Source: a virus. From it: a stretch of DNA of 13,256 nt. The first letter of the stretch is position 1; every line of letters starts with the position of its first letter. Both the position numbers and the translations under genes were made by a program. The notes below the pieces were generated by a model. The model saw nothing but the letters and a program-made list of their open reading frames with translations. It ran no database searches and had not been told where the DNA came from. Of this stretch, positions 2,108 through 12,902 are shown piece after piece. The DNA is taken from UHGV virus genome UHGV-0086716. One strand, 5' to 3'.

Positions 2108-2524
2108 TCATGGTCTTTGTTGCCTGCGTGATTGCCTGTTGGCGGCCGAATGCACATAGCGGGCAATTGCCGCTTTTCGGTTAACGACGGCCAGCGTTCT
2201 TGCCAGCTCTTCGTTGAGTTTTCTGGTCTGTTTTTCGTGGTATGCCTGCATGATTTTTCCTACGGGAGTCAGTGGTTCAGGCTCTGATATGGCGCGACGA
2301 GGGCGCACGGCAACGATGAATGCGCTTCTGTCGGTGTTGATTCTTGCAGCCAGGATGTCGGTCATGACGGTATCTGTGTTGCGATCGTGGTTTGCGATCG
2401 TGATCTCCAGTTCGTCGCCTGGCTGTGGTCGAACACTGACGCCGCTCAGCATCAGTGCCGGAATGCGTCCACTCATGATGGCGCTGAAATCATGGCGCTG
2501 GAGTACGCAATGGAATCGTGTCAT
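2108..2524 (-). CDS. Hypothetical protein (138 aa), first gene after A
   Basis: ATG at 2524 overlaps the A stop (ATGA) and has GGAGGTG upstream inside the A 3' end. Segment ELEITIANHD...DILAARI weakly resembles the start of DinI (unverified). Confidence 0.6.
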   Translation of the reverse strand: MTRFHCVLQRHDFSAIMSGRIPALMLSGVSVRPQPGDELEITIANHDRNTDTVMTDILAARINTDRSAFIVAVRPRRAISEPEPLTPVGKIMQAYHEKQTRKLNEELARTLAVVNRKAAIARYVHSAANRQSRRQQRP

Positions 2525-5010
2525 GGGTTCACCTCCGGTTGATCTGCTGCCACCAGGCTTCGTGATTTCTCATCCCAGTGCACAATCCGCCCGTCAGGCA
2601 GGCGAACGCGTGCACCTCTGTGTACGGAAAGTGCTGCGCCACTGTGTGGCTCCTCGCCCGTCGTGCTCAGTGCCGACTTGATCACGGTGGTGGTGACGTC
2701 AGCCAGCGGCAATGCTGCACGCACATCTATGACGTCATCGGGCGTGGTGGGGCCGCCGGTTTTCACGGTTTTTGTGTCAGATGGCGCATCTTTCAGCTGC
2801 CTGGTGAGTTGTTTTCGCTCTGTGGGGGTCAGTGACCTTAACCACTCACCCAAATCACCTCCCGGGACGACCAGTTTTTGTTCTTTCCTGGTTTCCGGTG
2901 GTGGGGTTTTACCCTCTCCGGTGTCTGTTTTTTCATCATGGGGACAGTTATTGCCACGAGTCCAAGGGGCGACAAAGTCGCCCTGAAGGTCAAAACCATT
3001 TTCGTGGGCGCTGTCTTTCACTTCTGGTTTACGCCTTACCAGCTTCCACTTGTCCAGGTGGGTGCATACCCTGGAGGATTCCCCTTTGAGCGGTGACCAG
3101 ATGCCGTAAATCTGTGCGCGCTGTTCGCCGTAATCATTAGGCTCATCTGCGATGTCATAGGCGGTACGAATCAGATAATCTTTGCGCGGAACCAGCACGC
3201 CCCCCTGCTTCTCGGTGTAGGTGGCAAAACACCCGGCGTCAGCGGCAGCCAGTACCGCATCCATGGCATCGTCTTCCAGTCGTCCGGGGCCCTGTGGATT
3301 GCGGGCCATCTGGCAGGCAAGGCGGCGCAGCTCGCGCCATACCTGTCGGGACGGAATACCAAAGAACTGAAACTGTCGGACACGGTGCAGGCGTGCCCAG
3401 CCTATGGCGTGCTCCACGCTCTCAGCCATTGGTTTTCCTGATTCGTCGTCAATGCGTGGCTTACCTGTTTTCGGGTCGATGCCATCCACGGCGCGGCTGT
3501 CCAGGTTTTTCCCGATATAGGTGGCGATGTAGCTGGTTGGCGTGCCTTTTGAGCCGTCAATGTATTCCACCTTAAAGCGTGGTGTTATGTCGTCGCCCAG
3601 TTCCTGACGGTCTTCACGGATGGCGATGTCCCGGGCTGCGTTCTCTATAGCCTTTGCGTTATCCGGATGGGTGAAGACCAGCATGTGCCAGTGCACGGTG
3701 CCGTCATGGTGTGGCTCCACCGTGCGGACGCCATACCAGCGCAGGCCGTCGCGGTTCAGCTTTTTGCGGAGGGCGGCAAAGAACTTGTTGACCAGGTAAT
3801 CACTGGAATCGCGAATGGTGCTTCCGTCCCACTTAGGGTTCAGATAACCGCGCTCCGTCGTGGCGTGAAACCTTGATGGTGCGGTGATGGTCACAAATAA
3901 CACTGTGTCGCCACGGGCTTCTGCCAGCAGTTCCATACCCTTCGTGGTCGCCATCATCTCGGCCCTGCGATTGACCGGGTTACTGATGCCTGCGTAATAG
4001 ACGGATTCAAGGTCAATAGTGAAGCCGTCCTCGTTTTCCAGTTCGAAACGTTTCAGGAAGTCGCGGGTTTTCTCGCGTTGTGCGCGGAACTCGCCCAGTG
4101 CGTCCTTACTCAGGTAGGGCGATGTTTTTCTGGAAACCAGACCGGCAGCACGCAACTGTTCTTCCCGCCATTCGCGGCGCAACCGCCAGAGTTTGTGGTA
4201 CCACCAGTCTGCGCAGTTCAGGCGAAGGATGGCGCCTGGCAGTCGTTCAACATCCGGTTCCGTTCTCCGGTTCTTGTCTGTTCTCAGCGCTTCGTAATGC
4301 GGTGGTATGGTGTGCAGGTGTAGCGCCATGCGGGCCAGTACCGGATATGCCTTCAGCATTACATCCACTGTCATCTCACCATCGCTGGCCCCGAAACCGT
4401 CGCAAAGTTTTTCGAAGGTTCTGCTGAACAGTATGGCCGTCATGGCTGCCAGCATTCGTGTCCGGCGTTCATCGAGCTGCGGCAGGTAAAGCAGGTTATC
4501 CAGATTGTCGCGCCCGGCAAGGGAACGGTAAGCCGGAGTCAGCCAGCGGCTGTTAGTGCGCTCCAGTCGTTTGAATATTTCGCGCAGTGTTTCGCTCGCG
4601 TAGCGGTCTGCCTGCCAGTTTTCCTCCCCTTTACGGCGTTCTGACTCCTGTTTTTTGCGCAGGATACTGAGTTTTTTAATAAGCGGATCCCGCAGATAAG
4701 GCGGTAACAGGCGCAGCGTGTCGTAGGCTTCGCTTACTGCATCACGTGCCCGTGGGGCAATCGCGGCGATTACCCGGTCCCGTGCTTCCTGTGCGTCCAG
4801 GTGTTTGTTAATCAGGCGCCCAAGCCTGGTCGCGGCGAAGTCTGCATCACTCAGTTCGCCGTCGGGCATCGCGCGACGGAGTGCATCCACCCGGTAGGCG
4901 TCCAGCCATGAACGAAGGGCTGAGGTGGGGGCGGGTGTTTCCCTTCTCCTCTCCTCTTGCCCTATGGCATGGCGTGGTTGTTGCCAGTCCCGGATGTACT
5001 CAGCTGCCAC
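2521..5010 (-). CDS. A: Phage replication initiation protein, gene A family (rolling-circle endonuclease), 829 aa
   Basis: Size matches P2 gpA-type proteins. HUH-type motif (GTVHWHMLVF) and tandem-tyrosine region (YIATYIGKN). GTG start at 5010 with GGAG upstream, 6 nt after the upstream gene's stop. Confidence 0.88.
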   Translation of the reverse strand: MAAEYIRDWQQPRHAIGQEERRRETPAPTSALRSWLDAYRVDALRRAMPDGELSDADFAATRLGRLINKHLDAQEARDRVIAAIAPRARDAVSEAYDTLRLLPPYLRDPLIKKLSILRKKQESERRKGEENWQADRYASETLREIFKRLERTNSRWLTPAYRSLAGRDNLDNLLYLPQLDERRTRMLAAMTAILFSRTFEKLCDGFGASDGEMTVDVMLKAYPVLARMALHLHTIPPHYEALRTDKNRRTEPDVERLPGAILRLNCADWWYHKLWRLRREWREEQLRAAGLVSRKTSPYLSKDALGEFRAQREKTRDFLKRFELENEDGFTIDLESVYYAGISNPVNRRAEMMATTKGMELLAEARGDTVLFVTITAPSRFHATTERGYLNPKWDGSTIRDSSDYLVNKFFAALRKKLNRDGLRWYGVRTVEPHHDGTVHWHMLVFTHPDNAKAIENAARDIAIREDRQELGDDITPRFKVEYIDGSKGTPTSYIATYIGKNLDSRAVDGIDPKTGKPRIDDESGKPMAESVEHAIGWARLHRVRQFQFFGIPSRQVWRELRRLACQMARNPQGPGRLEDDAMDAVLAAADAGCFATYTEKQGGVLVPRKDYLIRTAYDIADEPNDYGEQRAQIYGIWSPLKGESSRVCTHLDKWKLVRRKPEVKDSAHENGFDLQGDFVAPWTRGNNCPHDEKTDTGEGKTPPPETRKEQKLVVPGGDLGEWLRSLTPTERKQLTRQLKDAPSDTKTVKTGGPTTPDDVIDVRAALPLADVTTTVIKSALSTTGEEPHSGAALSVHRGARVRLPDGRIVHWDEKSRSLVAADQPEVNP

Positions 5011-5016
5011 AGCGAT

Positions 5017-5391
5017 TTACTCCGCGATGCTGTTCAGTGCGCCGAGGCAAACAGCGGTCAGGCGCTGGATTTCCTGCGCGGTGGCTTCAGGGCTTGCCCG
5101 GCGGTGCGTAATGCGAAGACTGTCGGAAATGACTTCAATGAGCACCGACGACGGGCACTGACAGATGCAAACAACACTTGCAATGGTGTCTTCAATGCGG
5201 GAGAGCGTGTAATTGCCCTGGTTGCAGGCAAGCAGGTAGCGGCCGTCAATGACAGTCTGACCATCGGGAAGTTGTGGTGCTGTGGGTTGCAACTTCCTGT
5301 ACATCTCGAAGCGATGGGCAACGCGATCTCGTGTACCGGCGTCGCTTTCGGTCTGAATCAGGTAAGTTACAAAATCATCGATGAGAATCAT
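5017..5391 (-). CDS. Hypothetical protein (124 aa) immediately upstream of A
   Basis: ATG at 5391 with AGGAGG 9 nt upstream; protein-like composition; same strand as operon. Confidence 0.65.
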   Translation of the reverse strand: MILIDDFVTYLIQTESDAGTRDRVAHRFEMYRKLQPTAPQLPDGQTVIDGRYLLACNQGNYTLSRIEDTIASVVCICQCPSSVLIEVISDSLRITHRRASPEATAQEIQRLTAVCLGALNSIAE

Positions 5392-5463
5392 TGTGGCAAT
5401 CCTCCTGTTGCAGATGTGCGGAAGCCTCCCGCGTACAGATACGGGATAGCTTCCGGATGTGGT

Positions 5464-5685
5464 TTATCGGTGCTGGTTGATGAGGCTTTGCAGTTCTGCC
5501 AGATCTTCGGCGAGATAGCTGAAGACAGCAGCGCAGTAACGGTTTGATAGCGCGTGCGTGCGCTCATGCAGCATGTTGATGTGCATGATTTGCGCGACGC
5601 GTGTTGCGCGGAAAAGTCTGCGGTTGATTTCGCTGCGTATGTGAATACGCTCAGCGCGGGCGCGCTGTTGCTTGCGGTTTGCCAT
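5464..5685 (-). CDS. Small basic hypothetical protein (73 aa)
   Basis: ATG at 5685 with AGAGG upstream; arginine-rich N-terminus suggests nucleic-acid binding. Confidence 0.5.
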   Translation of the reverse strand: MANRKQQRARAERIHIRSEINRRLFRATRVAQIMHINMLHERTHALSNRYCAAVFSYLAEDLAELQSLINQHR

Positions 5686-5728
5686 GGTGTGGCCTCTGCG
5701 TTAGTAAGTTCTGAAAACTCACCATCCA

Positions 5729-5917
5729 GAGTTGAGAATCTCGGGGTGGCGAGACGTACGGGGTTCTCAACACCGGCTAACACAGGACCCGGCCCGACCG
5801 AAGTCGGCCCCGTACGCCCCGCCATAATTCTGACGCGAAAAAGACGTGGCGATACAGTACGCACAAAAAAACCGCTGGCGCGGCTGTGCGCTGTGTTAGT
5901 CAGCGGGTTGAGAATCC
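5729..5917. repeat. Structured non-coding island with GTTGAGAA(T/C)C repeats and nested perfect stems
   Basis: GTTGAGAATC at 5731-5740 and 5907-5916 (direct); inverse copy GTTCTCAAC at 5763-5771. Nested TCTCG/CGAGA (5739-5743 / 5750-5754). Perfect 9-bp stem CGTACGGGG / CCCCGTACG (5755-5763 / 5808-5816) enclosing CCGAC-cgaa-GTCGG (5794-5807). No ATG-initiated ORF with an RBS in this stretch. Confidence 0.45.
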
Positions 5918-5982
5918 CGGCACCCGTTTTATGAGGTGCAGCGGAAATGTAACCTGACTCAACGAGCGCTGGCAAGCGGTTT

Positions 5983-6010
5983 TTGTGTTGCGTGCTGAAG
6001 TATGTATAAT
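5983..6010 (+). promoter_or_regulatory. Sigma70-type promoter for the plus-strand embedded gene
   Basis: -35 TTGTGT (5983-5988), 16-bp spacer, -10 TATAAT (6005-6010) preceded by TG; about 60 nt upstream of the ATG at 6072. Confidence 0.5.
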
Positions 6011-6071
6011 CGCGGCGCAAAAATGGAATGCGCCGAAGGATAGCGGCGTTTATTAACAATGGAGGTTGTTT

Positions 6072-6539
6072 ATGCCTGTTGCTATGGAGCAAGCAGACAA
6101 GAAGATTTTTTTCCATCTGTGGTACAGCTACTGGCTGGAAGAGATGGTTTTCATACTCAGCAATAAAGCCGCTGCCGTGTTGCGCGCCGGGGCACTGATT
6201 GCTGCGGTATTCTCCTTTCTTCTCGTAGGTTTTCCCGTCCTGATGAGCCTTTGCGGGCTGGCGTTTTTTGTTTTTTCCTGGTTTTGCAGCAAGTGTGAAT
6301 TCGTCGCCGAACTGGCGTGCTGGCAGAAACAGAGCTACCTTCGTCTGATTACGCAAAGGGATTCCATGAGCACTGAACGCCTCATTGAGCGCATTCTGTA
6401 TCTGGAAGAAACGAACAGCGCATTCATGAAGGCGTTTGTCAGGCCTGCAAAAAACAAAGCGAGCGCATCTGTTGGTCTGTCTGCCAGCGAGCATTTGCGT
6501 TACTCCGAAAGGTTAATCTGCTGGTTGTGCGGCTTCTGA
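6072..6539 (+). CDS. Embedded plus-strand gene: predicted membrane protein (155 aa) with cytoplasmic C-terminal domain
   Basis: ATG at 6072 with GGAGG 6 nt upstream and own promoter. Two hydrophobic helices (AAAVLRAGALIAAVFSFLLVGFPVLM, SLCGLAFFVFSWF); codon usage looks enteric. Opposite strand to the surrounding operon; 3' end overlaps the DUF4406-like gene by 27 nt. Confidence 0.6.
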   Translation: MPVAMEQADKKIFFHLWYSYWLEEMVFILSNKAAAVLRAGALIAAVFSFLLVGFPVLMSLCGLAFFVFSWFCSKCEFVAELACWQKQSYLRLITQRDSMSTERLIERILYLEETNSAFMKAFVRPAKNKASASVGLSASEHLRYSERLICWLCGF

Positions 6540-7394: not shown

Positions 7395-8321
7395 TCAGCA
7401 GTCCGGACAGTAGCCACCGCCATGGCGACCGCATGGGTCGCACTGTTTCAGGGTGGCGATAACCTCCGGTGCGGGTTCGCTGGTTCTTGCGCCAACGCTT
7501 CTCGGTACCTGGATGCAGTTCATCCGGTATCCCCGATAAATGCGCCGTGTTTCCGGTGTGTCGGAATTGGAGATGGTGATGCTGGTCATGCCGCCCGTTT
7601 CCTGTGAAAGACGGTCAAGTGCCGCTCTCAGGCGAACGTGCTCGTGTTCATCGAATGGTTTTCCGTAGGCGGTGAAATTGTTCTTGCCACTGAATCGCAG
7701 GTAAGGGGGATCGCAGTACACGCAAAGCGTGTTGCCCATGCCGAACAGGTGACTGGCAGAGTTCAGCGTATCCTTAAAATCTGCGTGGATAAGCAGCGTT
7801 CGGGTGCTGTTTGCCTTGTCTGCAAATGCGCGGATTTCCCGCTCAGGGAAGTAGGGCTTGCGGTAGCAGCCGAAAGGCACGTTAAAGTCACCTTTTCCGT
7901 TCACGCGGAACAAACCGTTAAAGCTGTGTCGGTTCAGGTACAAAAACATGGCGGCCAGTCGCAGTTCACGGCGGTCGCTTATTCCCGTTCTGCTACTCAG
8001 GAAGGCATGATTCTCTGCGTTAAAGGTTTCGCGAATGATGAGATAGTCACCCCTGTTGTTGTGGTTCAGGAACAGGGTTTTCGCCTCGTCGATCAGGCTG
8101 TCGGTGTTGTCCCTGACTTGCCGGTAGAAATTGATCAGCGCACCATTGGAATCCCCCAGGATGTAGCGCTTGTAACTGGTGTTCATGAATACCGATGCGC
8201 CGCCCGCAAACGGCTCAACCAGGCAGTCTGCTTCTGGCAGATGCGCCTTCAGTGTGTTCATGATGCGGCTTTTTCCGCCCACCCATTTCAGCGGTGTGCC
8301 GGATAACAGCTCTTTGCTCAT
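7395..8321 (-). CDS. dam: DNA adenine methyltransferase (Dam-like), 308 aa, with short Cys-rich C-terminal tail
   Basis: KWVGGK, EPFAGGASVF (SAM-binding), FNVPFG, DPPY catalytic motif, NFTAY and ISNSDT all align with E. coli Dam as I recall it. AAGAGG RBS 7 nt upstream. Extra tail CDPCGRHGGGYCPDC. Confidence 0.9.
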   Translation of the reverse strand: MSKELLSGTPLKWVGGKSRIMNTLKAHLPEADCLVEPFAGGASVFMNTSYKRYILGDSNGALINFYRQVRDNTDSLIDEAKTLFLNHNNRGDYLIIRETFNAENHAFLSSRTGISDRRELRLAAMFLYLNRHSFNGLFRVNGKGDFNVPFGCYRKPYFPEREIRAFADKANSTRTLLIHADFKDTLNSASHLFGMGNTLCVYCDPPYLRFSGKNNFTAYGKPFDEHEHVRLRAALDRLSQETGGMTSITISNSDTPETRRIYRGYRMNCIQVPRSVGARTSEPAPEVIATLKQCDPCGRHGGGYCPDC

Positions 8322-8336
8322 AACGCGGCCTCTTTG

Positions 8337-8546
8337 TTATAGGTTTCGTGCGTTAATAAATCCCATGACGCCCCGTTGTTTTTGCTCAGCAGTCGCCAGC
8401 GAAAACCGATTCTTATTACCAGGTAGTCGTGGGGTTTTATGCGTGAAAAATTCCGCACGCCGTCGCGGAATAAACGCAGCGATGCGCGGGCTTTTCTTTC
8501 CACGTTCAGGGGGGGGGCAGCAACACACATTCAGGATGGCGACCAT
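8337..8546 (-). CDS. Possible small leader ORF (69 aa) containing the C9 tract; coding status doubtful
   Basis: ATG at 8546 with GAGG upstream, but the product is proline/arginine-rich and not obviously globular. The alternate frame (8318..8530) ends in an ATGA overlap with the dam start. Confidence 0.3.
   Translation of the reverse strand: MVAILNVCCCPPPERGKKSPRIAAFIPRRRAEFFTHKTPRLPGNKNRFSLATAEQKQRGVMGFINARNL
8509..8517. repeat. G9 homopolymer (C9 on the coding strand) in the leader/small ORF upstream of dam
   Basis: Nine consecutive G at 8509-8517, inside the 234-bp interval between the exonuclease stop and the dam start, within codons 10-13 of a small ORF (8337..8546, minus). Confidence 0.9.
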
Positions 8547-8555
8547 AGCTTCACC

Positions 8556-9137
8556 TCATATGCTCAGGAATGGCGTTGTGAAGCGCTGCCAGATTTCTGA
8601 CACGACCTTTGCCTGGTAAATGGCATCGCCCAGTGCAGTGTGAGCAATGGTCTCTTTGCCTGATCGGCCTGGCATTCTCCAGCCGGAGGACTTAGCCATG
8701 TCGATAAGCGGACGCATACAGCGCTCGTTCCAGTAACACCACGGAATACTTTTTTCTCCGGCCGTGCGCTTTATGGCGGATCTCAGGATTGGGAAGTCAA
8801 AGTATGCACCCTTGCACCATACGGTCAGTGCCTTGCCCAGGGTTTCGTCTTGCATGTTGCGCGAAATGAACGCCAGAAATTCGGTTACTGCCGCAAGTTC
8901 TGTTCCCTCTGCGTTGAGCAGGCAGGCTCTGGCCTCCACGGATTGACCGGCCCACCATATGGCGGTTGATGCATTGACGGTTCCGCCGTTGCGCTCTGAA
9001 TCCACCGGGTCGATGTATTTCTCAAACTGCTTACCCAGCTTTCCGGTGAACGGGTCGAAAAACACCGCGCCGATCGCGAATATGACTGCGTCCGGTCCGG
9101 TGCCCAGTGTTTCGGTGTCAATCATGAGATGGTTCAT
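8556..9137 (-). CDS. DEDDh-type 3'-5' exonuclease (DnaQ-like fold), 193 aa
   Basis: Exo I motif MIDTETLG near the N-terminus and Exo III-like HTALGDAIY near the C-terminus. ATG at 9137 overlaps the upstream stop (ATGA); alternative start at 9125. Confidence 0.8.
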   Translation of the reverse strand: MNHLMIDTETLGTGPDAVIFAIGAVFFDPFTGKLGKQFEKYIDPVDSERNGGTVNASTAIWWAGQSVEARACLLNAEGTELAAVTEFLAFISRNMQDETLGKALTVWCKGAYFDFPILRSAIKRTAGEKSIPWCYWNERCMRPLIDMAKSSGWRMPGRSGKETIAHTALGDAIYQAKVVSEIWQRFTTPFLSI

Positions 9138-9367
9138 TGTGCGGACCCCTTCAGTTCTGTGTTGTTCGTGAGCGTTGCAATCAGTCGTTCAATGGCTGAA
9201 CAGGTTTCCAGCGGGGAGGTGTGCTTCTCTTTCGCCGTGTTAACCAGGTCTCGCAGTAATTCGCAGATATGCGCACGTTCGGCTTTTCTTGCGGTCATGC
9301 TGATGTGTGCATGTGGCTGTTCTGGTCTGGCGGTTATTTCTCTGCTTGGTGATTCGGCAGTTCTCAT
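9134..9367 (-). CDS. Hypothetical protein (77 aa)
   Basis: Start re-called to ATG at 9367 (GGAG 7 nt upstream); the track's TTG at 9391 is less likely. Confidence 0.5.
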   Translation of the reverse strand: MRTAESPSREITARPEQPHAHISMTARKAERAHICELLRDLVNTAKEKHTSPLETCSAIERLIATLTNNTELKGSAQ

Positions 9368-9581
9368 TTGTTGACTCCTGAAAAAAGACAAAGGGAAGCC
9401 GAAGGCATGAATGCCTTAATTAATTGCTTGTGTGTTTTCTGGTGTTATTCCGCGCCTGCTTTCGGCTTCAGATTATCCCCAGATTCTTCAGCGCTAACCA
9501 TATAAGCGCGCACACCTGAAATACCAACCATGCAGTGGCGATATTCAGTATTGTTTTCACGTGCTTCATAAGCTTTTCGCT

Positions 9582-9707
9582 TTATTTACGGCGTTTGTCG
9601 CCAGTAAAAAATAATTCGACATCCTTCAGTGTGTGGATAATTCGCATAATGCCGATTGCTATAAGCACGGAGATAATCAGAATTACCCATGAAAGAAATA
9701 TGCTCAT
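9582..9707 (-). CDS. Small hydrophobic peptide (41 aa), single predicted transmembrane helix with basic C-terminus
   Basis: Not in the ORF track (below its size cut-off). ATG at 9707 with AGGAG 7 nt upstream and ATGA overlap with the upstream stop. Hand translation: MSIFLSWVILIISVLIAIGIMRIIHTLKDVELFFTGDKRRK. AT-rich relative to neighbours. Confidence 0.5.
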   Translation of the reverse strand: MSIFLSWVILIISVLIAIGIMRIIHTLKDVELFFTGDKRRK

Positions 9708-9946
9708 GCGGCTACTCCTGTGAAGTAAGGCTCGACAATTTCACCTTCAAACAGTTCTGTCATAATCGACTTTAATTCTTCCAGCGCTTCACGGTCATCG
9801 CTGCCCAGCGCGCAGTTATACAGTCCCATAATTGCGCCGCGCAGTGAGTTACGAAGGTTTTCATCCTTAGTTACGCCCCGGTTTGCAAGTTCGAAGTGGT
9901 AACGCTGCAACGCGTTATTAATAAGTATTTTGTAGGCTTCGATCAT
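9704..9946 (-). CDS. Hypothetical protein (80 aa)
   Basis: ATG at 9946 with AGGA upstream; protein-like composition. Confidence 0.55.
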   Translation of the reverse strand: MIEAYKILINNALQRYHFELANRGVTKDENLRNSLRGAIMGLYNCALGSDDREALEELKSIMTELFEGEIVEPYFTGVAA

Positions 9947-9964
9947 GACTGAATCCTTTATTTA

Positions 9965-10300
9965 TCAGTGCTTGCTTCCCGGATATTGAAAACGCAGGCC
10001 GTTGATTAATCTGTCTGCCGTTCTTAAGGCTTCAAAAAATGTGAAGTCCTGTCCGAAGTAATCATCTCCGCGAGTCAGAGTAAAATTAAATCGGCCAGTA
10101 ACAGGGCTGCGAAAACTTTTGTGAATAACGATGCCAGTGTCGCCAATCGTCCAGGTGTGCTTGCCAGTTTGTTTTACCGGGTGACCGTCTGGTGTGGCGT
10201 GGATTTCAGTGGTTACGGTCGCGCTATTTTTGCGGAAGTTCTGGCGTGCAACGTGGCGTTCTGCGTTGTTATTAATGCGTGCATTTCGTTGTTGCTTCAT
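9965..10300 (-). CDS. Hypothetical protein (111 aa)
   Basis: ATG at 10300; operon strand; basic N-terminus; no recognised motif. Confidence 0.55.
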   Translation of the reverse strand: MKQQRNARINNNAERHVARQNFRKNSATVTTEIHATPDGHPVKQTGKHTWTIGDTGIVIHKSFRSPVTGRFNFTLTRGDDYFGQDFTFFEALRTADRLINGLRFQYPGSKH

Positions 10301-10325
10301 TTTTCACTCGGTCCTTATGCGATGA

Positions 10326-10520
10326 TTACAGTGATTCGCTTCTTGTCAGCCTAAAAATCACTTCAGCCATGACACAGCCAATTACATTCGCCTCATAATC
10401 GGCAAATACCTGTCTCCATTCCTCGCTTGCTCGTGTTGGATCCAGCCTGCCTGATTGCTGTTGTGTGATGATGAATCGAAAAAGGCTGTATAAGTCTTTT
10501 GTTTGAGTGGAGTCAGTCAT
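10326..10520 (-). CDS. Hypothetical protein (64 aa)
   Basis: ATG at 10520 with AAGGTG upstream. Confidence 0.45.
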   Translation of the reverse strand: MTDSTQTKDLYSLFRFIITQQQSGRLDPTRASEEWRQVFADYEANVIGCVMAEVIFRLTRSESL

Positions 10521-10571
10521 GTCAACACCTTCAAATCCTGATGCTCTTAATGATCCCGGTTTGTTTTGATG

Positions 10572-11096
10572 TTACTGGTTGCCTCCACTGTATTGGTGTT
10601 GCTCCAGTTTTGACTTTCTTCCTGTGTAAACCCGCTTTTCATTGATGGTCTGGCAGTCTTCTTTGTTTGCCGGGGAAAACTTTCTTTTCTGTCGGTCGTA
10701 CGTCCAGTAGCTTTTCCAGTTGTGCCATTCTGGCGGCTCGCATTCTGGTAATTCGTCAGCCAGCTTGTCCCACTCTCTGGCGTTAAACCACCATACGCCA
10801 TCCGAATTTTCGTCCTCAGGGTTTGAACGGGTCTTGTGTCCAGGCATCTGATTTCGCTGAAGCGCCACGCGCAATGCAGCTTTTGTCAACCCGATATAGG
10901 CCGCCCCTTTTTCAAGTGAGCAAAGTCCGGCTACCGGGCCATCCAGTCGCAAGGTTGCCCCTTTTTTGTAGGTGCGTTTTTTCTTTTCCTCTTGGTGTTC
11001 ATCGTCGTTTGCCGCACCAACGGATTCGGTGATGTCGCTACTTCCGTGGGGTTGCTGGGTGTCAGATAACTCTTTATCGGCAATGAAGTCCCGCAT
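10572..11096 (-). CDS. Cox-like early regulator/excisionase with N- and C-terminal extensions (174 aa)
   Basis: First gene of the leftward operon, divergent from the repressor gene; AAGAGG 7 nt upstream of ATG at 11096. Central segment AAYIGLTKAALRVALQRNQMP...GVWWFNAREWDKL resembles the P2 Cox HTH core as I recall it. Confidence 0.55.
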   Translation of the reverse strand: MRDFIADKELSDTQQPHGSSDITESVGAANDDEHQEEKKKRTYKKGATLRLDGPVAGLCSLEKGAAYIGLTKAALRVALQRNQMPGHKTRSNPEDENSDGVWWFNAREWDKLADELPECEPPEWHNWKSYWTYDRQKRKFSPANKEDCQTINEKRVYTGRKSKLEQHQYSGGNQ

Positions 11097-11155
11097 TTGT
11101 TATCCTCTTGTGTTGGTGCGCTTGTCGCGCATTATGAAGGTTTGTTTTGGTTTAT

Positions 11156-11179
11156 AAAGATACTCATACGAGTATCTTT
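11156..11179. promoter_or_regulatory. Perfect 10-4-10 palindrome in the divergent switch region (candidate operator)
   Basis: AAAGATACTC-atac-GAGTATCTTT, perfect dyad, 21 nt upstream of the repressor ATG and within the 103-bp interval between the divergent starts. Confidence 0.55.
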
Positions 11180-11199
11180 TGCGAGAGGTTAATACTCAA

Positions 11200-11541
11200 A
11201 TGGTTATCTTGTCAATAGACTATGCAAAAAAGCTACGTCAAATACGCAAGGCTGAAGGGCTAACGCAAAAGGAATTTGCGGATATTACGGGGTTGTCTTT
11301 AGCTGCCATAAGGAACTATGAATCAGGGCAAAAAAGCGCCAGAGCCAAAATTGTTGAGGCGGTTCTCCAGGTTGATCGATTTGAAAAATACATGATGTGG
11401 CTAATAAAAGATAAGACAATGCCTGTTGCCGGTCAGATAGCTCCGGCTCTCTCTCTTGATGGCTCCATTCAGTCGGAGGACGATCAGGATTCAATCCCAG
11501 CCACCCAAAAATCATCCCGATCAGGCCGCAATGCTGGCTAA
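11200..11541 (+). CDS. Immunity repressor, P2 C-like (HTH), 113 aa
   Basis: Motifs YESG, FEKYMMW and GQIAPAL match P2 repressor C as I recall it; HTH (LTQKEFADITGLSLAAIRNYESG). ATG at 11200 with GAGAGG upstream preferred over the track's TTG at 11179. Immediately upstream of int, as in P2. Confidence 0.8.
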   Translation: MVILSIDYAKKLRQIRKAEGLTQKEFADITGLSLAAIRNYESGQKSARAKIVEAVLQVDRFEKYMMWLIKDKTMPVAGQIAPALSLDGSIQSEDDQDSIPATQKSSRSGRNAG

Positions 11542-11610
11542 CGCTGCACATCGAGCGGGTTTCATCCCGCAGGGAGTGTACGGCTAATTTATCCGTCGGA
11601 GGGGCTAATC

Positions 11611-12603
11611 ATGTCGATTAAGCAACTCAAAGACGGGCGTTATAAGGTTGATGTAAGGCCGCAAGGGGCGGAAGGAAAGCGGATCCGTAAGATTTTTACC
11701 CTGAAGTCAAAGGCACAGGAGTTTGAAAGGTATGTTTTGCAGAATTTCCACGATAAACCGTGGCAGGCCAAGCCAGCTGATCAGCGTCGGTTATCCGAAC
11801 TGATAGATGCCTGGTGGGTGCTTGATGGTCGGAATCAGCCTTACGGGGATACTTACAGGGTCAGGCTGGAAAAAATAAACCGTGAGATGAGGGACCCCCG
11901 CGCCAGTGAGATGACGCGAAAGTTTATGCTCGGGTATCGTTCAGATAAATTACAGGCCGGATTAATGCCCTCCAGTGTTAATCGTGATTTGTGCGCCTTG
12001 TCTGCAATGTTTACCGCGCTGATTGATGCGGAGGTTTTCCATAATGAAAACCCGGTGCGTGGAATACGTAAGCTCAAGGTCAGGAATACAGAAATGGCCT
12101 TTCTTTCAGATGATGAGATTGATCGGCTCCTTGAGCGACTCGAGGGTGATGCGCGTCGCGTTGCTGTTCTGTGTCTTTCCACTGGCGCAAGGTGGGGGGA
12201 AGCGGCTGGTTTGCGTGGTGAGCATATCGTTGGTAACCGCGTAATGTTCTTTAACACAAAGAATGGAAAATCCCGCGCAGTTCCTGTTTCTGATACGGTG
12301 CTTTCGTTGATAAAAACCCGAAAAACTGGGCTATTGTACCAGGCTGATTACATCCGTTTTCGGGAGATCCTTCAGGAGGTGAAGCCGGACTTGCCGAAAG
12401 GGCAGGCCACCCATGTCATGCGTCATACATTCGCTACACATTTCATGATGAATGGCGGAAATATCGTTACGCTACAACGAATCCTGGGCCATGCCACGAT
12501 TCAACAAACGATGACGTATGCGCATTTTTCGCCGGACTTTTTACAGGATGCAATCAGCTTTAATCCGCTGGCTGAAAGTGTCCATAAACTGTCCATCGAT
12601 TAG
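11611..12603 (+). CDS. int: Tyrosine integrase, P2 Int-like (330 aa)
   Basis: GGAGGGG RBS 6 nt upstream. Catalytic-region pattern LCLSTGARWGEAA, HVMRHTFATHFMMNGGNIVTLQRILGH, TMTYAHF (R...HxxR...Y). Last phage gene before host DNA. Confidence 0.92.
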   Translation: MSIKQLKDGRYKVDVRPQGAEGKRIRKIFTLKSKAQEFERYVLQNFHDKPWQAKPADQRRLSELIDAWWVLDGRNQPYGDTYRVRLEKINREMRDPRASEMTRKFMLGYRSDKLQAGLMPSSVNRDLCALSAMFTALIDAEVFHNENPVRGIRKLKVRNTEMAFLSDDEIDRLLERLEGDARRVAVLCLSTGARWGEAAGLRGEHIVGNRVMFFNTKNGKSRAVPVSDTVLSLIKTRKTGLLYQADYIRFREILQEVKPDLPKGQATHVMRHTFATHFMMNGGNIVTLQRILGHATIQQTMTYAHFSPDFLQDAISFNPLAESVHKLSID

Positions 12604-12718
12604 TTGTAACTTGTGCTTATTTGCTCCCCTTGTTTTGATTTACTCATTGAAAAATAAGCAAATCATCAAGGGGAGTAAGTAGCGTTAAACCTCCTGCGGG
12701 CGCTTTTTTTGTCTCCCT
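12604..12718. other. Prophage/host junction containing an att-like core
   Basis: GAAAAATAAGCaaatcatcAAGGGGAG (12649-12675) resembles the P2 att core as I recall it. An upstream segment (12612-12630) carries reverse-complement copies of the same sub-motifs. T7 run at 12704-12710. Confidence 0.4.
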
Positions 12719-12732
12719 TTGATACCGAACAA
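12719..12732 (+). promoter_or_regulatory. FNR-type binding site upstream of dmsA
   Basis: TTGAT-accg-AACAA matches FNR consensus TTGAT-N4-ATCAA at 9 of 10 positions, 171 bp upstream of the dmsA ATG; dmsA is a known FNR-activated anaerobic gene. Confidence 0.5.
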
Positions 12733-12902
12733 TAATTACTCCTCACTTACACGTAATACTACTTTCGAGTGAAAATCTACCTATCTCTTTGATTTTCAAA
12801 TTATTCGATGTATACAAGCCTATATAGCGATCTGCTATAGAAATAATTACACAATACGGTTTGTTACTGGAATCAATCGTGAGCAAGCTTGAGTGAGCCA
12901 TT

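What the first reader, a model, noticed from the sequence alone, without database searches (positions are those of the whole stretch)
9582..9707. Unannotated 41-aa hydrophobic peptide, translationally coupled and AT-rich
A short ORF missed by the track has a strong RBS and an ATGA overlap with the upstream gene. It encodes one transmembrane-like helix followed by a basic tail, with lower GC than its neighbours. Small membrane peptides in phage early regions are often host-directed or toxic, for example division or membrane-potential inhibitors.
Basis: partly seen in the sequence, partly recalled or inferred. Interest (0 to 1): 0.45.

Follow-up and report, generated by a model that had tools for sequence, protein, structure and literature searches.

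The report
Conserved small membrane protein, P2-like prophage
The 41-codon reading frame is a real, strongly conserved phage gene for a one-helix inner-membrane peptide that always follows an 80-residue protein of unknown function; relatives sit in about a quarter of complete E. coli genomes, but nobody knows what it does.

Summary
ORF 9582-9707 (minus strand) has an AGGAG 7 nt before its ATG and an ATGA overlap with the upstream DUF4754 gene. It encodes one membrane helix (residues 3-21) plus a net +3 tail, at 37% GC.

An ORF this short is not significant alone. Comparison makes it a gene:
- The sense frame is open in 52 of 53 distinct homologous sequences; antisense frames in at most 22.
- Against the phage P88 clade, dS is 1.3-1.9, dN about 0.2 and omega 0.10-0.18.
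- The peptide is 70% identical to its P88 counterpart, while its neighbour is 41%.
- The ATGA overlap with DUF4754 is present in every locus examined.

The low GC comes from codon positions 1 and 2, so it reflects hydrophobic residues, not foreign origin. The antisense 62-aa ORF is not conserved.

The window is the early lytic operon of a P2-like E. coli prophage beside dmsA. RefSeq already lists homologues as "hypothetical protein", and P88 lists one as "membrane protein". The family is narrow (Escherichia/Citrobacter P2-like phages) and matches no known family, structure or paper.

Function is untested. Conservation follows one helix face (p about 0.002), which suggests specific binding to DUF4754 and/or a host membrane protein rather than simple anchoring. 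This is an ordinary kind of feature, well supported and of modest interest.

The parts
9582..9707 (-). 41-aa small membrane protein gene (stop codon included). Predicted topology is N-terminus out, C-terminus in, with one membrane helix at residues 3-21 and a cytoplasmic amphipathic tail carrying the conserved K28-x-x-E31-x-x-F34-T35-G36 motif.
   Evidence: ORF listed. Sense frame open in 52/53 distinct homologue sequences. Omega is 0.10-0.18 against the P88 clade, Fisher p about 2-3e-5. AlphaFold2 gives one helix over residues 2-40, pLDDT 84. Hydrophobicity. PGAP annotates homologues WP_016232595.1 and WP_000110304.1.
9715..9719 (-). Shine-Dalgarno AGGAG, 7 nt upstream of the ATG, lying inside the 3' end of the DUF4754 gene.
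   Evidence: Read directly. Other clades have GGGGAA, GGAGG or GGGAG at the same place.
9704..9707 (-). ATGA start/stop overlap between DUF4754 and the 41-aa gene.
   Evidence: Read. Present in 85/85 peptide-anchored loci and 80/80 DUF4754-anchored loci; the two sets share contigs. The three apparent exceptions are contig ends.
9704..9946 (-). Upstream partner gene: an 80-aa DUF4754 protein, predicted as a three-helix bundle with a disordered C-terminal tail carrying an invariant E-P-Y.
   Evidence: Pfam PF15946 at E 1.5e-15. phrog_2549, function unknown. AlphaFold2 pLDDT 80, helices at 2-23, 29-48 and 52-66, residues 74-80 below 50. Invariant columns.
11131..11158 (-). Promoter-like site (TTTATA-16-CATAAT) between the divergent HTH repressor-like gene (11179..11541, plus strand) and the cox-like gene (10572..11096, minus strand). 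Probable early promoter driving the operon that contains the 41-aa gene.
   Evidence: Consensus scan, which is not above chance on its own. The position matches Pe of P2 and pR of 186. Pfam HTH_3 and Phage_Cox hits.
9381..9417 (-). Hairpin AAGGCA-TTCA-TGCCTT (9402-9417) followed 15 nt later by a T6 run (9381-9386), just before the next gene (9134..9367). Possible weak terminator or RNA-end element closing the promoter-proximal segment. Uncertain.
   Evidence: Sequence. Not called by the terminator scan. Fold z-scores of -1.2 and -1.3. P2 and 186 have annotated terminators at the equivalent operon position.
9468..9569 (-). Second small hydrophobic ORF, 33 aa, starting 12 nt after the stop of the 41-aa gene. 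Coding status uncertain.
   Evidence: Open in 6/6 distinct sequences of the window clade, with one in-frame 3-nt insertion. It has no Shine-Dalgarno, a frameshifted C-terminus in some copies, and about 9 nonsynonymous against 3 synonymous changes. Absent from the P88 clade.

Best explanation
Shown here:
- The ORF is a protein-coding gene of the early lytic operon of a P2-like (Peduoviridae, Xuanwuvirus-related) E. coli prophage.
- The operon order is repressor-like HTH gene, divergent promoter, cox-like, 64-aa ORF, DUF4761, DUF4754, 41-aa gene, 77-aa gene, 3'-5' exonuclease, Dam, and onward to replication gene A.
- Its product is a 41-aa peptide with one very hydrophobic helix and a positively charged C-terminal tail.
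- It always follows a DUF4754 gene with a 4-nt ATGA overlap, and it is under stronger purifying selection than that neighbour.

Inferred:
- It is transcribed only when the early promoter is derepressed, on infection or induction.
- It is translated by ribosomes finishing DUF4754, so in step with that protein.
- It inserts into the inner membrane with the N-terminus out and the C-terminus in.
- It acts by specific helix-to-helix binding, not as a passive anchor or detergent-like toxin. Conservation runs along one continuous face of the helix through the membrane and into the juxtamembrane tail: F4, S6, W7, L10, I11, S13, A17, G19, I23, I24, K28, E31, F34, T35. The opposite face varies freely.
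- The most likely partners are the co-translated DUF4754 protein on the cytoplasmic side and/or a host inner-membrane protein. The net effect would be redirecting a host envelope function early in lytic growth.

Which host function is affected is not known.
For: Coding:
- The sense frame is open in 52/53 distinct sequences, against at most 22/53 for any antisense frame.
- Window against the P88 clade gives dS 1.3-1.9, dN 0.19-0.22 and omega 0.10-0.18. About 16 of 25 synonymous sites have changed against 16 of 86 nonsynonymous sites, Fisher p about 3e-5.
- 164 of 168 copies are an intact 37 or 41 aa.

Pairing with DUF4754:
- The ATGA overlap is found in all loci, whether the search was anchored on the peptide or on DUF4754. 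It also holds in P88, Shae_phiSM, E. albertii and a compact operon, L088.

Relative constraint:
- The peptide is 26/37 identical between the window and P88, while DUF4754 is 33/80 identical.
- dN is 0.2 for the peptide against 0.72 for DUF4754.

Membrane helix and face-specific conservation:
- Hessa sum of -4.06 for residues 3-21.
- Per-position entropy shows about 100-degree periodicity, with permutation p 0.0017 over residues 2-37 and 0.022 for the membrane helix alone.
- AlphaFold2 predicts a single helix over residues 2-40.

Operon context:
- Pfam hits Phage_Cox, Phage_GPA, integrase and HTH_3.
- E. coli annotation of the syntenic prophage beside dmsA.
- P2 and 186 operon maps for comparison.

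Precedent:
- Small membrane proteins that work by binding larger membrane proteins are reviewed in PMC12648545.
Against: - There is no expression, localisation or phenotype data for any family member. Four literature searches found nothing.
- The peptide pairs with very different DUF4754 versions. A window-like peptide at 93-95% identity follows a 79-aa DUF4754 that is only 24% identical (L008, L011). The L002-type peptide follows both a 93% and a 43% identical DUF4754. No co-variation supports direct contact, so any interface would have to use the few invariant DUF4754 residues.
- A heterodimer could not be modelled with the tools available.
- The periodicity test rests on 51 related sequences and on entropy values only.
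- High conservation of a membrane helix is also seen in pore-forming type I toxins, so it does not exclude a pore.
Confidence: 0.45

Rival explanations
1. Pore-forming or depolarising membrane toxin, working like type I toxins or a small holin. The peptide oligomerises in the inner membrane and dissipates the proton-motive force, shutting down the host or excluding competitors. The upstream DUF4754 protein may temper it, giving an antitoxin-first, toxin-second pair with an ATGA overlap, as in type II modules or the type V GhoS/GhoT pair.
For: - The size, single hydrophobic helix and short charged tail match the general description of type I toxins (review PMC12648545).
- The gene order and 4-nt overlap resemble toxin-antitoxin operons.
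- DUF4754 has a folded helical core plus a disordered conserved tail, like many antitoxins. That comparison is from my own knowledge.
- A heptad stripe of small and polar residues (S6, S13, A17) could equally mediate self-association.
Against: - No charged or strongly polar residue lies inside the helix core to line a pore.
- No antisense promoter-like site lies in 9000-11700, and there is no Rfam match near the ORF.
- The gene has no transcription unit of its own. It sits mid-operon behind cox.
- Neither protein matches a PADLOC, Pfam or NCBIfam toxin or antitoxin family.
- The conserved cytoplasmic motif K-x-x-E-x-x-F-T-G is not needed for a simple pore.
- 164 of 168 prophage copies are intact, so there is no sign of counter-selection.
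Confidence: 0.2
2. Early-expressed superinfection-exclusion or injection-blocking factor. A small inner-membrane protein would stop DNA entry of further phages once the lytic programme has started, working like T4 Imm or HK97 gp15 (comparison from my own knowledge).
For: - Inner-membrane location is predicted.
- The gene sits in a non-essential-looking accessory stretch of the early operon, which is mosaic between phages.
- It is widespread in E. coli prophages, with the P88 type in 1363 of 5426 complete genomes.
Against: - It is not in the lysogenic operon, and no independent promoter was detected. A resting lysogen would therefore not be protected.
- P2-family exclusion genes (old, tin, fun) sit at other, known hotspots (for old and tin).
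- Strict coupling to a soluble 80-aa protein is not explained.
- There is no similarity to any known exclusion protein.
Confidence: 0.12
3. Functional counterpart of phage 186 fil/dhr: a host cell-division or replication inhibitor occupying the same slot in the P2-family early operon. The peptide would bind a membrane component of the division machinery, working like Caulobacter SidA or SPO1 gp56 (comparison from my own knowledge).
For: - In 186 the overlapping fil-dhr pair (75 and 66 aa) lies between the switch genes and terminator tR1. It is annotated as blocking cell division and host replication.
- The DUF4754-peptide pair occupies the same position and is followed by a hairpin and T-run.
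Against: - There is no sequence or profile similarity to Fil. BLASTP gives no alignment, and hhalign gives probability 0.1%. Dhr was compared only by eye.
- Dhr has no hydrophobic stretch, and Fil has only a short C-terminal one; no small ORF with a membrane-helix-like stretch was found in the 186 or P2 early operons.
- Position in a mosaic accessory region is weak evidence of shared function.
Confidence: 0.13
4. The reading frame matters only as a translated spacer, for example to keep ribosomes on the mRNA and prevent polarity or termination. The peptide itself would have no function.
For: - In 186, translation to the end of orf84 is annotated as needed for translation of A, so coupling-only roles exist in this phage family.
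- The ORF lies just before a possible terminator.
Against: - Purifying selection on the amino-acid sequence is strong, with omega 0.10-0.18 and dN 3.5-fold lower than the neighbouring gene.
- Nineteen residues are invariant across the ten distinct peptide variants aligned.
- Conservation is face-specific.
Confidence: 0.03

Closest known systems
RefSeq hypothetical proteins WP_016232595.1, WP_234630929.1 and WP_000110304.1 (E. coli prophages), and phage P88 AIZ95115.1 'membrane protein' (Xuanwuvirus)
   Same: They belong to the same family. Identity is 70-95% over 37-41 aa. All share the ATGA overlap after a DUF4754 gene and the same place in the early operon.
   Different: The window copy differs by a few residues; I16 is rare, seen in 1 of 51 variants. 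The P88 type ends at codon 38 through a TAA, with the old -QRK* end still readable behind it. None has a described function.
Phage 186 fil-dhr gene pair (cell-division and host-replication inhibitors) before terminator tR1
   Same: A small, non-essential, overlapping gene pair at the equivalent position of a P2-family early operon, followed by a terminator-like element.
   Different: There is no detectable sequence relationship to Fil; Dhr was compared only by eye. Fil and Dhr are 75 and 66 aa and no membrane-helix-like stretch was detected in either. The two functions are not shown to match.
Bacterial small membrane proteins that modulate larger membrane proteins (MgtS, MgtR, AcrZ and others; review PMC12648545)
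   Same: About 30-50 aa, one membrane helix and no enzymatic domain. They act by specific helix-helix contact, which is the mode suggested by the face-specific conservation here.
   Different: Those are chromosomal stress-response genes with known targets. This one is phage-encoded, lies in an early lytic operon, is coupled to a soluble partner and has no known target.
Type I toxins (Hok/Gef, Ldr, TisB, Ibs, ShoB, DinQ, ZorO)
   Same: A small hydrophobic single-helix peptide with a short charged end, and some are prophage-associated.
   Different: No antisense RNA, own promoter or structured 5' leader was found. The gene is embedded in an operon and overlaps the preceding gene. There is no sequence similarity: a profile search of 1.84 billion proteins returned only the family itself.
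GhoS/GhoT type V module and type II toxin-antitoxin operon layout (from my own knowledge)
   Same: An upstream soluble protein is followed by an overlapping or adjacent downstream gene, which in GhoT is a small membrane-damaging peptide.
   Different: There is no homology to GhoS or GhoT or to any PADLOC, Pfam or NCBIfam toxin-antitoxin model. No autonomous promoter was found. DUF4754 is a three-helix bundle, not a Cas2-like RNase.

Membership tests
DUF4754-linked small membrane peptide family (RefSeq WP_016232595 / WP_000110304; P88 AIZ95115) | Sequence M-[SN]-[IV]-F-x-S-W-x-x-L-I-[IL]-[SA]-...-A-[IV]-G-I-[MV]-[RKQ]-I-I-...-K-x-I-E-x-x-F-[TS], length 37-41 aa | tested here: met
   Identity of 59-95% to all members. 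Profile search E-values of 5e-21 to 5e-14 for full-length relatives.
DUF4754-linked small membrane peptide family (RefSeq WP_016232595 / WP_000110304; P88 AIZ95115) | Start codon overlaps the stop of a DUF4754 gene (ATGA) in a P2-like early operon | tested here: met
   Seen in the window and in all loci found from either gene.
Type I toxin-antitoxin toxin | Small hydrophobic peptide under 60 aa with one membrane helix | tested here: met
   41 aa. Residues 3-21 give a Hessa sum of -4.06 kcal/mol.
Type I toxin-antitoxin toxin | Own transcription unit with a regulatory 5' leader | tested here: not met
   The ORF starts inside the preceding gene (ATGA) with the Shine-Dalgarno in that gene's coding sequence. 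It is the fifth gene of the cox operon.
Type I toxin-antitoxin toxin | Antisense or nearby small RNA antitoxin | tested here: inconclusive
   No plus-strand promoter-like site lies in 9000-11700, and there is no Rfam match near the ORF at E up to 1. A consensus scan and a curated RNA library cannot exclude an unknown RNA.
Holin | Located in the late lysis cassette next to the endolysin | tested here: not met
   It lies between cox-like and replication gene A in the early operon. Its neighbours are DUF4754 and a 77-aa protein followed by an exonuclease.
Holin | Membrane helix or helices plus a charged cytoplasmic C-terminus | tested here: met
   This feature is generic and not discriminating.
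Phage 186 Fil / Dhr | Sequence or profile similarity to Fil or Dhr | tested here: not met
   BLASTP of the peptide against Fil gives no alignment at E up to 100. The DUF4754 profile against Fil gives hhalign probability 0.1%. Dhr was compared only by eye.
Phage 186 Fil / Dhr | Blocks cell division or host replication when expressed | not testable with these tools
   This needs induced expression and microscopy.
Type II/V toxin-antitoxin pair | Match to a known toxin or antitoxin family | tested here: not met
   No Pfam, NCBIfam or PADLOC toxin or antitoxin hit for either protein. The DUF4754 model has no Foldseek match at E below 0.39 in PDB or BFVD.
Type II/V toxin-antitoxin pair | Two-gene operon, antitoxin first, with overlapping reading frames | tested here: inconclusive
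   The order and the overlap fit, but the pair is not an autonomous operon. The only promoter-like site nearby overlaps the ATG and is within chance expectation.

The most novel reading that the evidence does not exclude
DUF4754 and the 41-aa peptide form an obligate two-component, membrane-targeted host-takeover module. It would be specific to Xuanwuvirus-like P2-family prophages and present in roughly a quarter of complete E. coli genomes. The peptide's conserved helix face would bind an essential host inner-membrane protein, such as a division, protease or insertase component. The soluble three-helix partner would dock on the conserved juxtamembrane motif. An alternative form is a new protein-controlled membrane-toxin pair.
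Probability: 0.3. Interest if true: 0.55.

Novelty: new member of a known kind. Interest (0 to 1): 0.3.

Why it matters
The gene is tiny and easy to miss, yet it is more conserved than its neighbours. With its P88-type relatives, it sits in prophages of about 25% of complete E. coli genomes (1363 of 5426; the window type is in 29). No family name, structure or paper covers it.

If the peptide and DUF4754 do target a host inner-membrane function, they would give a compact new probe or inhibitor of that function. They would also explain one of the unassigned early genes of a very common E. coli prophage group.

If not, the result is still useful for annotation. The ORF should be called, the antisense ORF should not, and the low GC is not evidence of foreign origin.

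Tried and rejected
Family and structure searches for the peptide found nothing.
- Pfam, PHROGs, NCBIfam, PADLOC and PDB sequence searches returned no meaningful hit. The only marginal NCBIfam matches were generic membrane-helix noise (E 0.044 and 0.2).
- A profile search of 1.84 billion representative proteins returned 18 hits. All 12 sequences retrieved and read, including the best-scoring ones, are the same family or frameshifted fragments of it.

Word-indexed protein searches reached only close relatives: 12, 5 and 5 hits.

A scan of one genome per species found only E. albertii and a record labelled Vagococcus sp. The latter carries a sequence essentially identical to the E. coli P88-type module, so contamination or mislabelling is likely. 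This was not followed up.

The DUF4754 fold gave no lead. It is a generic three-helix bundle, with best Foldseek E of 0.61 in PDB and 0.39 in BFVD.

Other readings rejected:
- Fil/Dhr homology.
- The antisense 62-aa ORF.
- Foreign origin as the cause of low GC.
- An intrinsic terminator directly after the ORF. The scan did not call it and the fold is not more stable than shuffles.
- Similar small membrane ORFs in the P2 and 186 early operons; none was found.

Literature searches found nothing relevant. I searched DUF4754, DUF4761, the Pfam accessions, the peptide sequence, protein accessions and Xuanwuvirus. A CFT073 ribosome-profiling preprint covers only intergenic ORFs in uninduced cells and is uninformative here.

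Full report
**1. What is at the coordinates**

The minus strand of 9582-9707 carries a 41-codon ORF encoding MSIFLSWVILIISVLIAIGIMRIIHTLKDVELFFTGDKRRK.
- An AGGAG lies at 9719-9715, 7 nt before the ATG.
- The ATG (9707-9705) overlaps the TGA stop (9706-9704) of the upstream 80-aa gene 9704..9946, giving ATGA.
- GC is 37.3%, against 47-55% for adjacent genes and 52.4% for the window.

The best 19-residue hydrophobic stretch is residues 3-21, with a summed Hessa scale of -4.06 kcal/mol. The N-terminus carries no charge. The tail, residues 22-41, has 6 K/R and 3 D/E, so the positive-inside rule predicts N-terminus out and C-terminus in (topology is inferred). AlphaFold2 gives one continuous helix over residues 2-40 with mean pLDDT 84.

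A 41-codon ORF means little on its own, because 40 ORFs of at least 25 aa overlap 8500-10800.

**2. Context**

The window is the regulatory and early-replication end of a P2-like prophage.
- Integrase at 11611..12603 (plus strand).
- An HTH repressor-like gene at 11179..11541 (plus strand).
- A divergent minus-strand operon, in order: cox-like (10572..11096), a 64-aa ORF, DUF4761 (9965..10300), DUF4754 (9704..9946), the 41-aa ORF, a 77-aa gene (9134..9367), a 3'-5' exonuclease, a small phrog_1525 gene, Dam methylase, DUF4406 and others, then replication gene A (2521..5010).

A syntenic E. coli prophage lies beside dmsA, and every complete E. coli genome matches part of the window, presumably the chromosomal flank. 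The host is therefore E. coli or a very close relative. No isolated phage genome matches the region at the DNA level.

**3. Is it a gene?**

NCBI's PGAP pipeline annotates the homologous ORF as "hypothetical protein" in E. coli RefSeq genomes: WP_016232595.1, WP_000110304.1 and WP_234630929.1. Phage P88 (Xuanwuvirus) annotates a 37-aa homologue as "membrane protein", again overlapping an 80-aa DUF4754-like gene by ATGA. The same ORF is present but unannotated in Citrobacter phage Shae_phiSM.

I fetched 80 IMG/VR loci with the peptide as query and 80 with DUF4754 as query. The two sets share contigs.
- Among 53 distinct nucleotide versions of the first 111 nt, the sense frame is open in 52.
- The other five frames are open in 0-22.
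- This removes the antisense 62-aa ORF (9535..9723, plus strand) as a candidate.
- 164 of 168 copies encode an intact 37- or 41-aa product.

Between the window and the P88 clade, synonymous sites are near saturation (dS 1.3-1.9) while dN is 0.19-0.22. Omega is 0.10-0.18. About 16 of 25 synonymous sites have changed against 16 of 86 nonsynonymous sites, Fisher p about 3e-5.

The peptide is 26/37 identical between these clades, whereas the upstream DUF4754 protein is 33/80 identical with dN 0.72. The little gene is thus the more constrained of the two. I conclude with high confidence that it is a real protein-coding gene.

**4. The AT-richness**

GC by codon position is 0.40, 0.29 and 0.43. For DUF4754 it is 0.57, 0.35 and 0.49. 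The deficit sits at positions 1 and 2, which reflects the Ile/Leu/Phe/Lys-rich sequence. It is not evidence of a different origin.

**5. Linkage to DUF4754**

Every peptide locus has a DUF4754 gene ending in ATGA at the peptide start, and every DUF4754 locus has the peptide. Three apparent exceptions are contig ends. A compact operon has cox directly followed by DUF4754 and the peptide (L088).

The pair is nevertheless mosaic.
- A window-like peptide (93-95% identical) follows a 79-aa DUF4754 that is only 24% identical (L008, L011).
- The L002-type peptide follows DUF4754 versions that are 93% or 43% identical to the window's.

There is therefore obligate co-occurrence but no co-variation. DUF4754 models as a three-helix bundle (helices at 2-23, 29-48 and 52-66; pLDDT 80) with a disordered tail that carries an invariant E-P-Y. 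Its fold has no informative match in PDB or BFVD, and its sequence has no useful match in PDB.

**6. Breadth**

A profile of both peptide clades was searched against 1.84 billion representative proteins. It returned 18 hits. All 12 sequences retrieved and read, including the best-scoring ones, are the same family or frameshifted fragments.

Among one genome per species, only E. albertii and an oddly labelled "Vagococcus sp." record carry it. Among phage records, DUF4754 occurs only in Xuanwuvirus-type Escherichia and Citrobacter phages.

The family is narrow but common. The P88-type pair is in 1363 of 5426 complete E. coli genomes, and the window type is in 29.

**7. Clues to mechanism**

Invariant or nearly invariant residues are F4, S6, W7, L10, I11, A17, G19, I23, I24, K28, E31, F34 and T35. 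Positions 5, 8, 9, 15, 16, 25-27, 29 and 32 vary.

The entropy profile has helical periodicity of about 100 degrees. The permutation p is 0.0017 over residues 2-37 and 0.022 for the membrane part alone. One face of a long helix is conserved from the membrane into the juxtamembrane tail. It includes a heptad stripe: S6, L10, S13, A17, I20, I24.

A mere anchor would need only hydrophobicity, so I infer specific helix packing. The partner could be the peptide itself, DUF4754, or a host inner-membrane protein.

The terminal KRRK is dispensable. The P88 type has a TAA at codon 38 with the remnant -QRK* still readable behind it.

The gene lies downstream of the early promoter and has no convincing promoter of its own. 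Expression is therefore expected on infection or induction, not in the resting lysogen (inferred).

**8. Comparison with known systems**

- *Phage 186 and P2.* In 186 the overlapping fil-dhr pair occupies the same operon slot before terminator tR1. P2 has a terminator after gene B. The similarity is positional only. There is no sequence or profile similarity to Fil; Dhr was compared only by eye. No small ORF with a membrane-helix-like stretch turned up in the P2 or 186 early operons.
- *Type I toxins.* They share the size and hydrophobic helix. They differ in having their own transcription unit and an antisense RNA, neither of which was found here.
- *Holins.* These belong to the late lysis cassette, not here.
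- *Toxin-antitoxin pairs.* The antitoxin-first layout with an overlapping small membrane peptide recalls type II and type V (GhoS/GhoT) modules. No family match supports membership.
- *Closest working analogy.* The nearest match is the class of small membrane proteins that bind and modulate larger membrane proteins (review PMC12648545).

**9. Verdict**

The gene is real, conserved and coupled. Its product is a single-pass inner-membrane peptide of an early lytic operon. It most likely acts through a specific helix interface, together with DUF4754 and/or on a host membrane protein.

Toxicity, division block, depolarisation and exclusion all remain untested possibilities. It is a new, unnamed member of a familiar kind of phage gene and is already present as "hypothetical protein" in RefSeq. 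Interest is modest.

**10. Side observations**

- A second hydrophobic 33-aa ORF lies 12 nt downstream, at 9468-9569. It is open in all six distinct sequences of this clade but shows no sign of purifying selection and has no Shine-Dalgarno.
- A hairpin with a distant T-run (9381-9417) precedes the next gene.
- In all other clades the intergenic region after the peptide gene carries a TCCGC-N4-GCGGA hairpin. Its loop varies freely, and there is one compensatory stem change.
- An isrK-like RNA and a C4 antisense RNA lie at 5742-5939.

Noticed in passing
window 9468-9569 (-): A second small hydrophobic ORF (33 aa, MKHVKTILNIATAWLVFQVCALIWLALKNLGII) starts 12 nt after the stop of the 41-aa gene. 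It is open in all 6 distinct sequences of the window clade, and one has an in-frame 3-nt insertion. It has no Shine-Dalgarno, a frameshifted C-terminus in some copies, and about 9 nonsynonymous against 3 synonymous differences. PGAP does not annotate it, and it is absent from the P88 clade.
   Followed up: partly
window 9381-9417 (-): Hairpin AAGGCA-TTCA-TGCCTT is followed 15 nt later by TTTTTT, just upstream of the next gene's AGGAG. It lies at the operon position where P2 and 186 have annotated terminators. The terminator scan did not call it, and it is not more stable than shuffled sequence.
   Followed up: partly
L003 3077-3118, and the equivalent place in about 130 occurrences among the fetched loci (some contigs fetched twice; e.g. 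L002, L017, L020, L087, L088): In every clade except the window's, the spacer after the peptide gene holds a conserved GAAAAC-N-A-TCCGC-N4-GCGGA-GG element. The 5-bp stem is invariant, the 4-nt loop varies freely (8 versions), and one lineage has a compensatory C:G to T:A change (TCCGT-ATTA-ACGGA). No U-run follows. It is either an RNA hairpin (processing or stability) or a protein-binding palindrome.
   Followed up: partly
window 5742-5939 (-): Rfam C4 antisense RNA (5742-5829, 77.8 bits) and isrK Hfq-binding RNA (5865-5939, 62.3 bits) lie in tandem. Both fall inside a mechanical 368-aa ORF (5388-6494) that has no Pfam hit. This is a P1 immI-like or Gifsy-like RNA module inside a P2-like prophage early region.
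   Followed up: partly
window 12678-12812 (-): An Rfam STnc130 small RNA match (122 bits) lies just outside the integrase gene, on the chromosomal flank that borders dmsA in E. coli. It probably marks the prophage attachment region.
   Followed up: no
L003 2692-2934 (phage P88 KP063541): The P88 DUF4754 homologue AIZ95114.1 is annotated 'DNA modification methyltransferase' in the GenBank record but 'DUF4754 family protein' in RefSeq. The first label looks like an annotation error.
   Followed up: no
L086 (NZ_JBQPOM010000071.1, 'Vagococcus sp. WN89Y'): A genome labelled as a Gram-positive Vagococcus carries a P88-type DUF4754-peptide module essentially identical to the E. coli ones, on a 226-kb contig. 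Contamination or mislabelling is likely.
   Followed up: no
window 8318-8530 (-): A 70-aa gene between the exonuclease and Dam (phrog_1525, function unknown) corresponds to the E. coli gene that PGAP names 'ParE family toxin-like protein'. No partner antitoxin is evident next to it.
   Followed up: no
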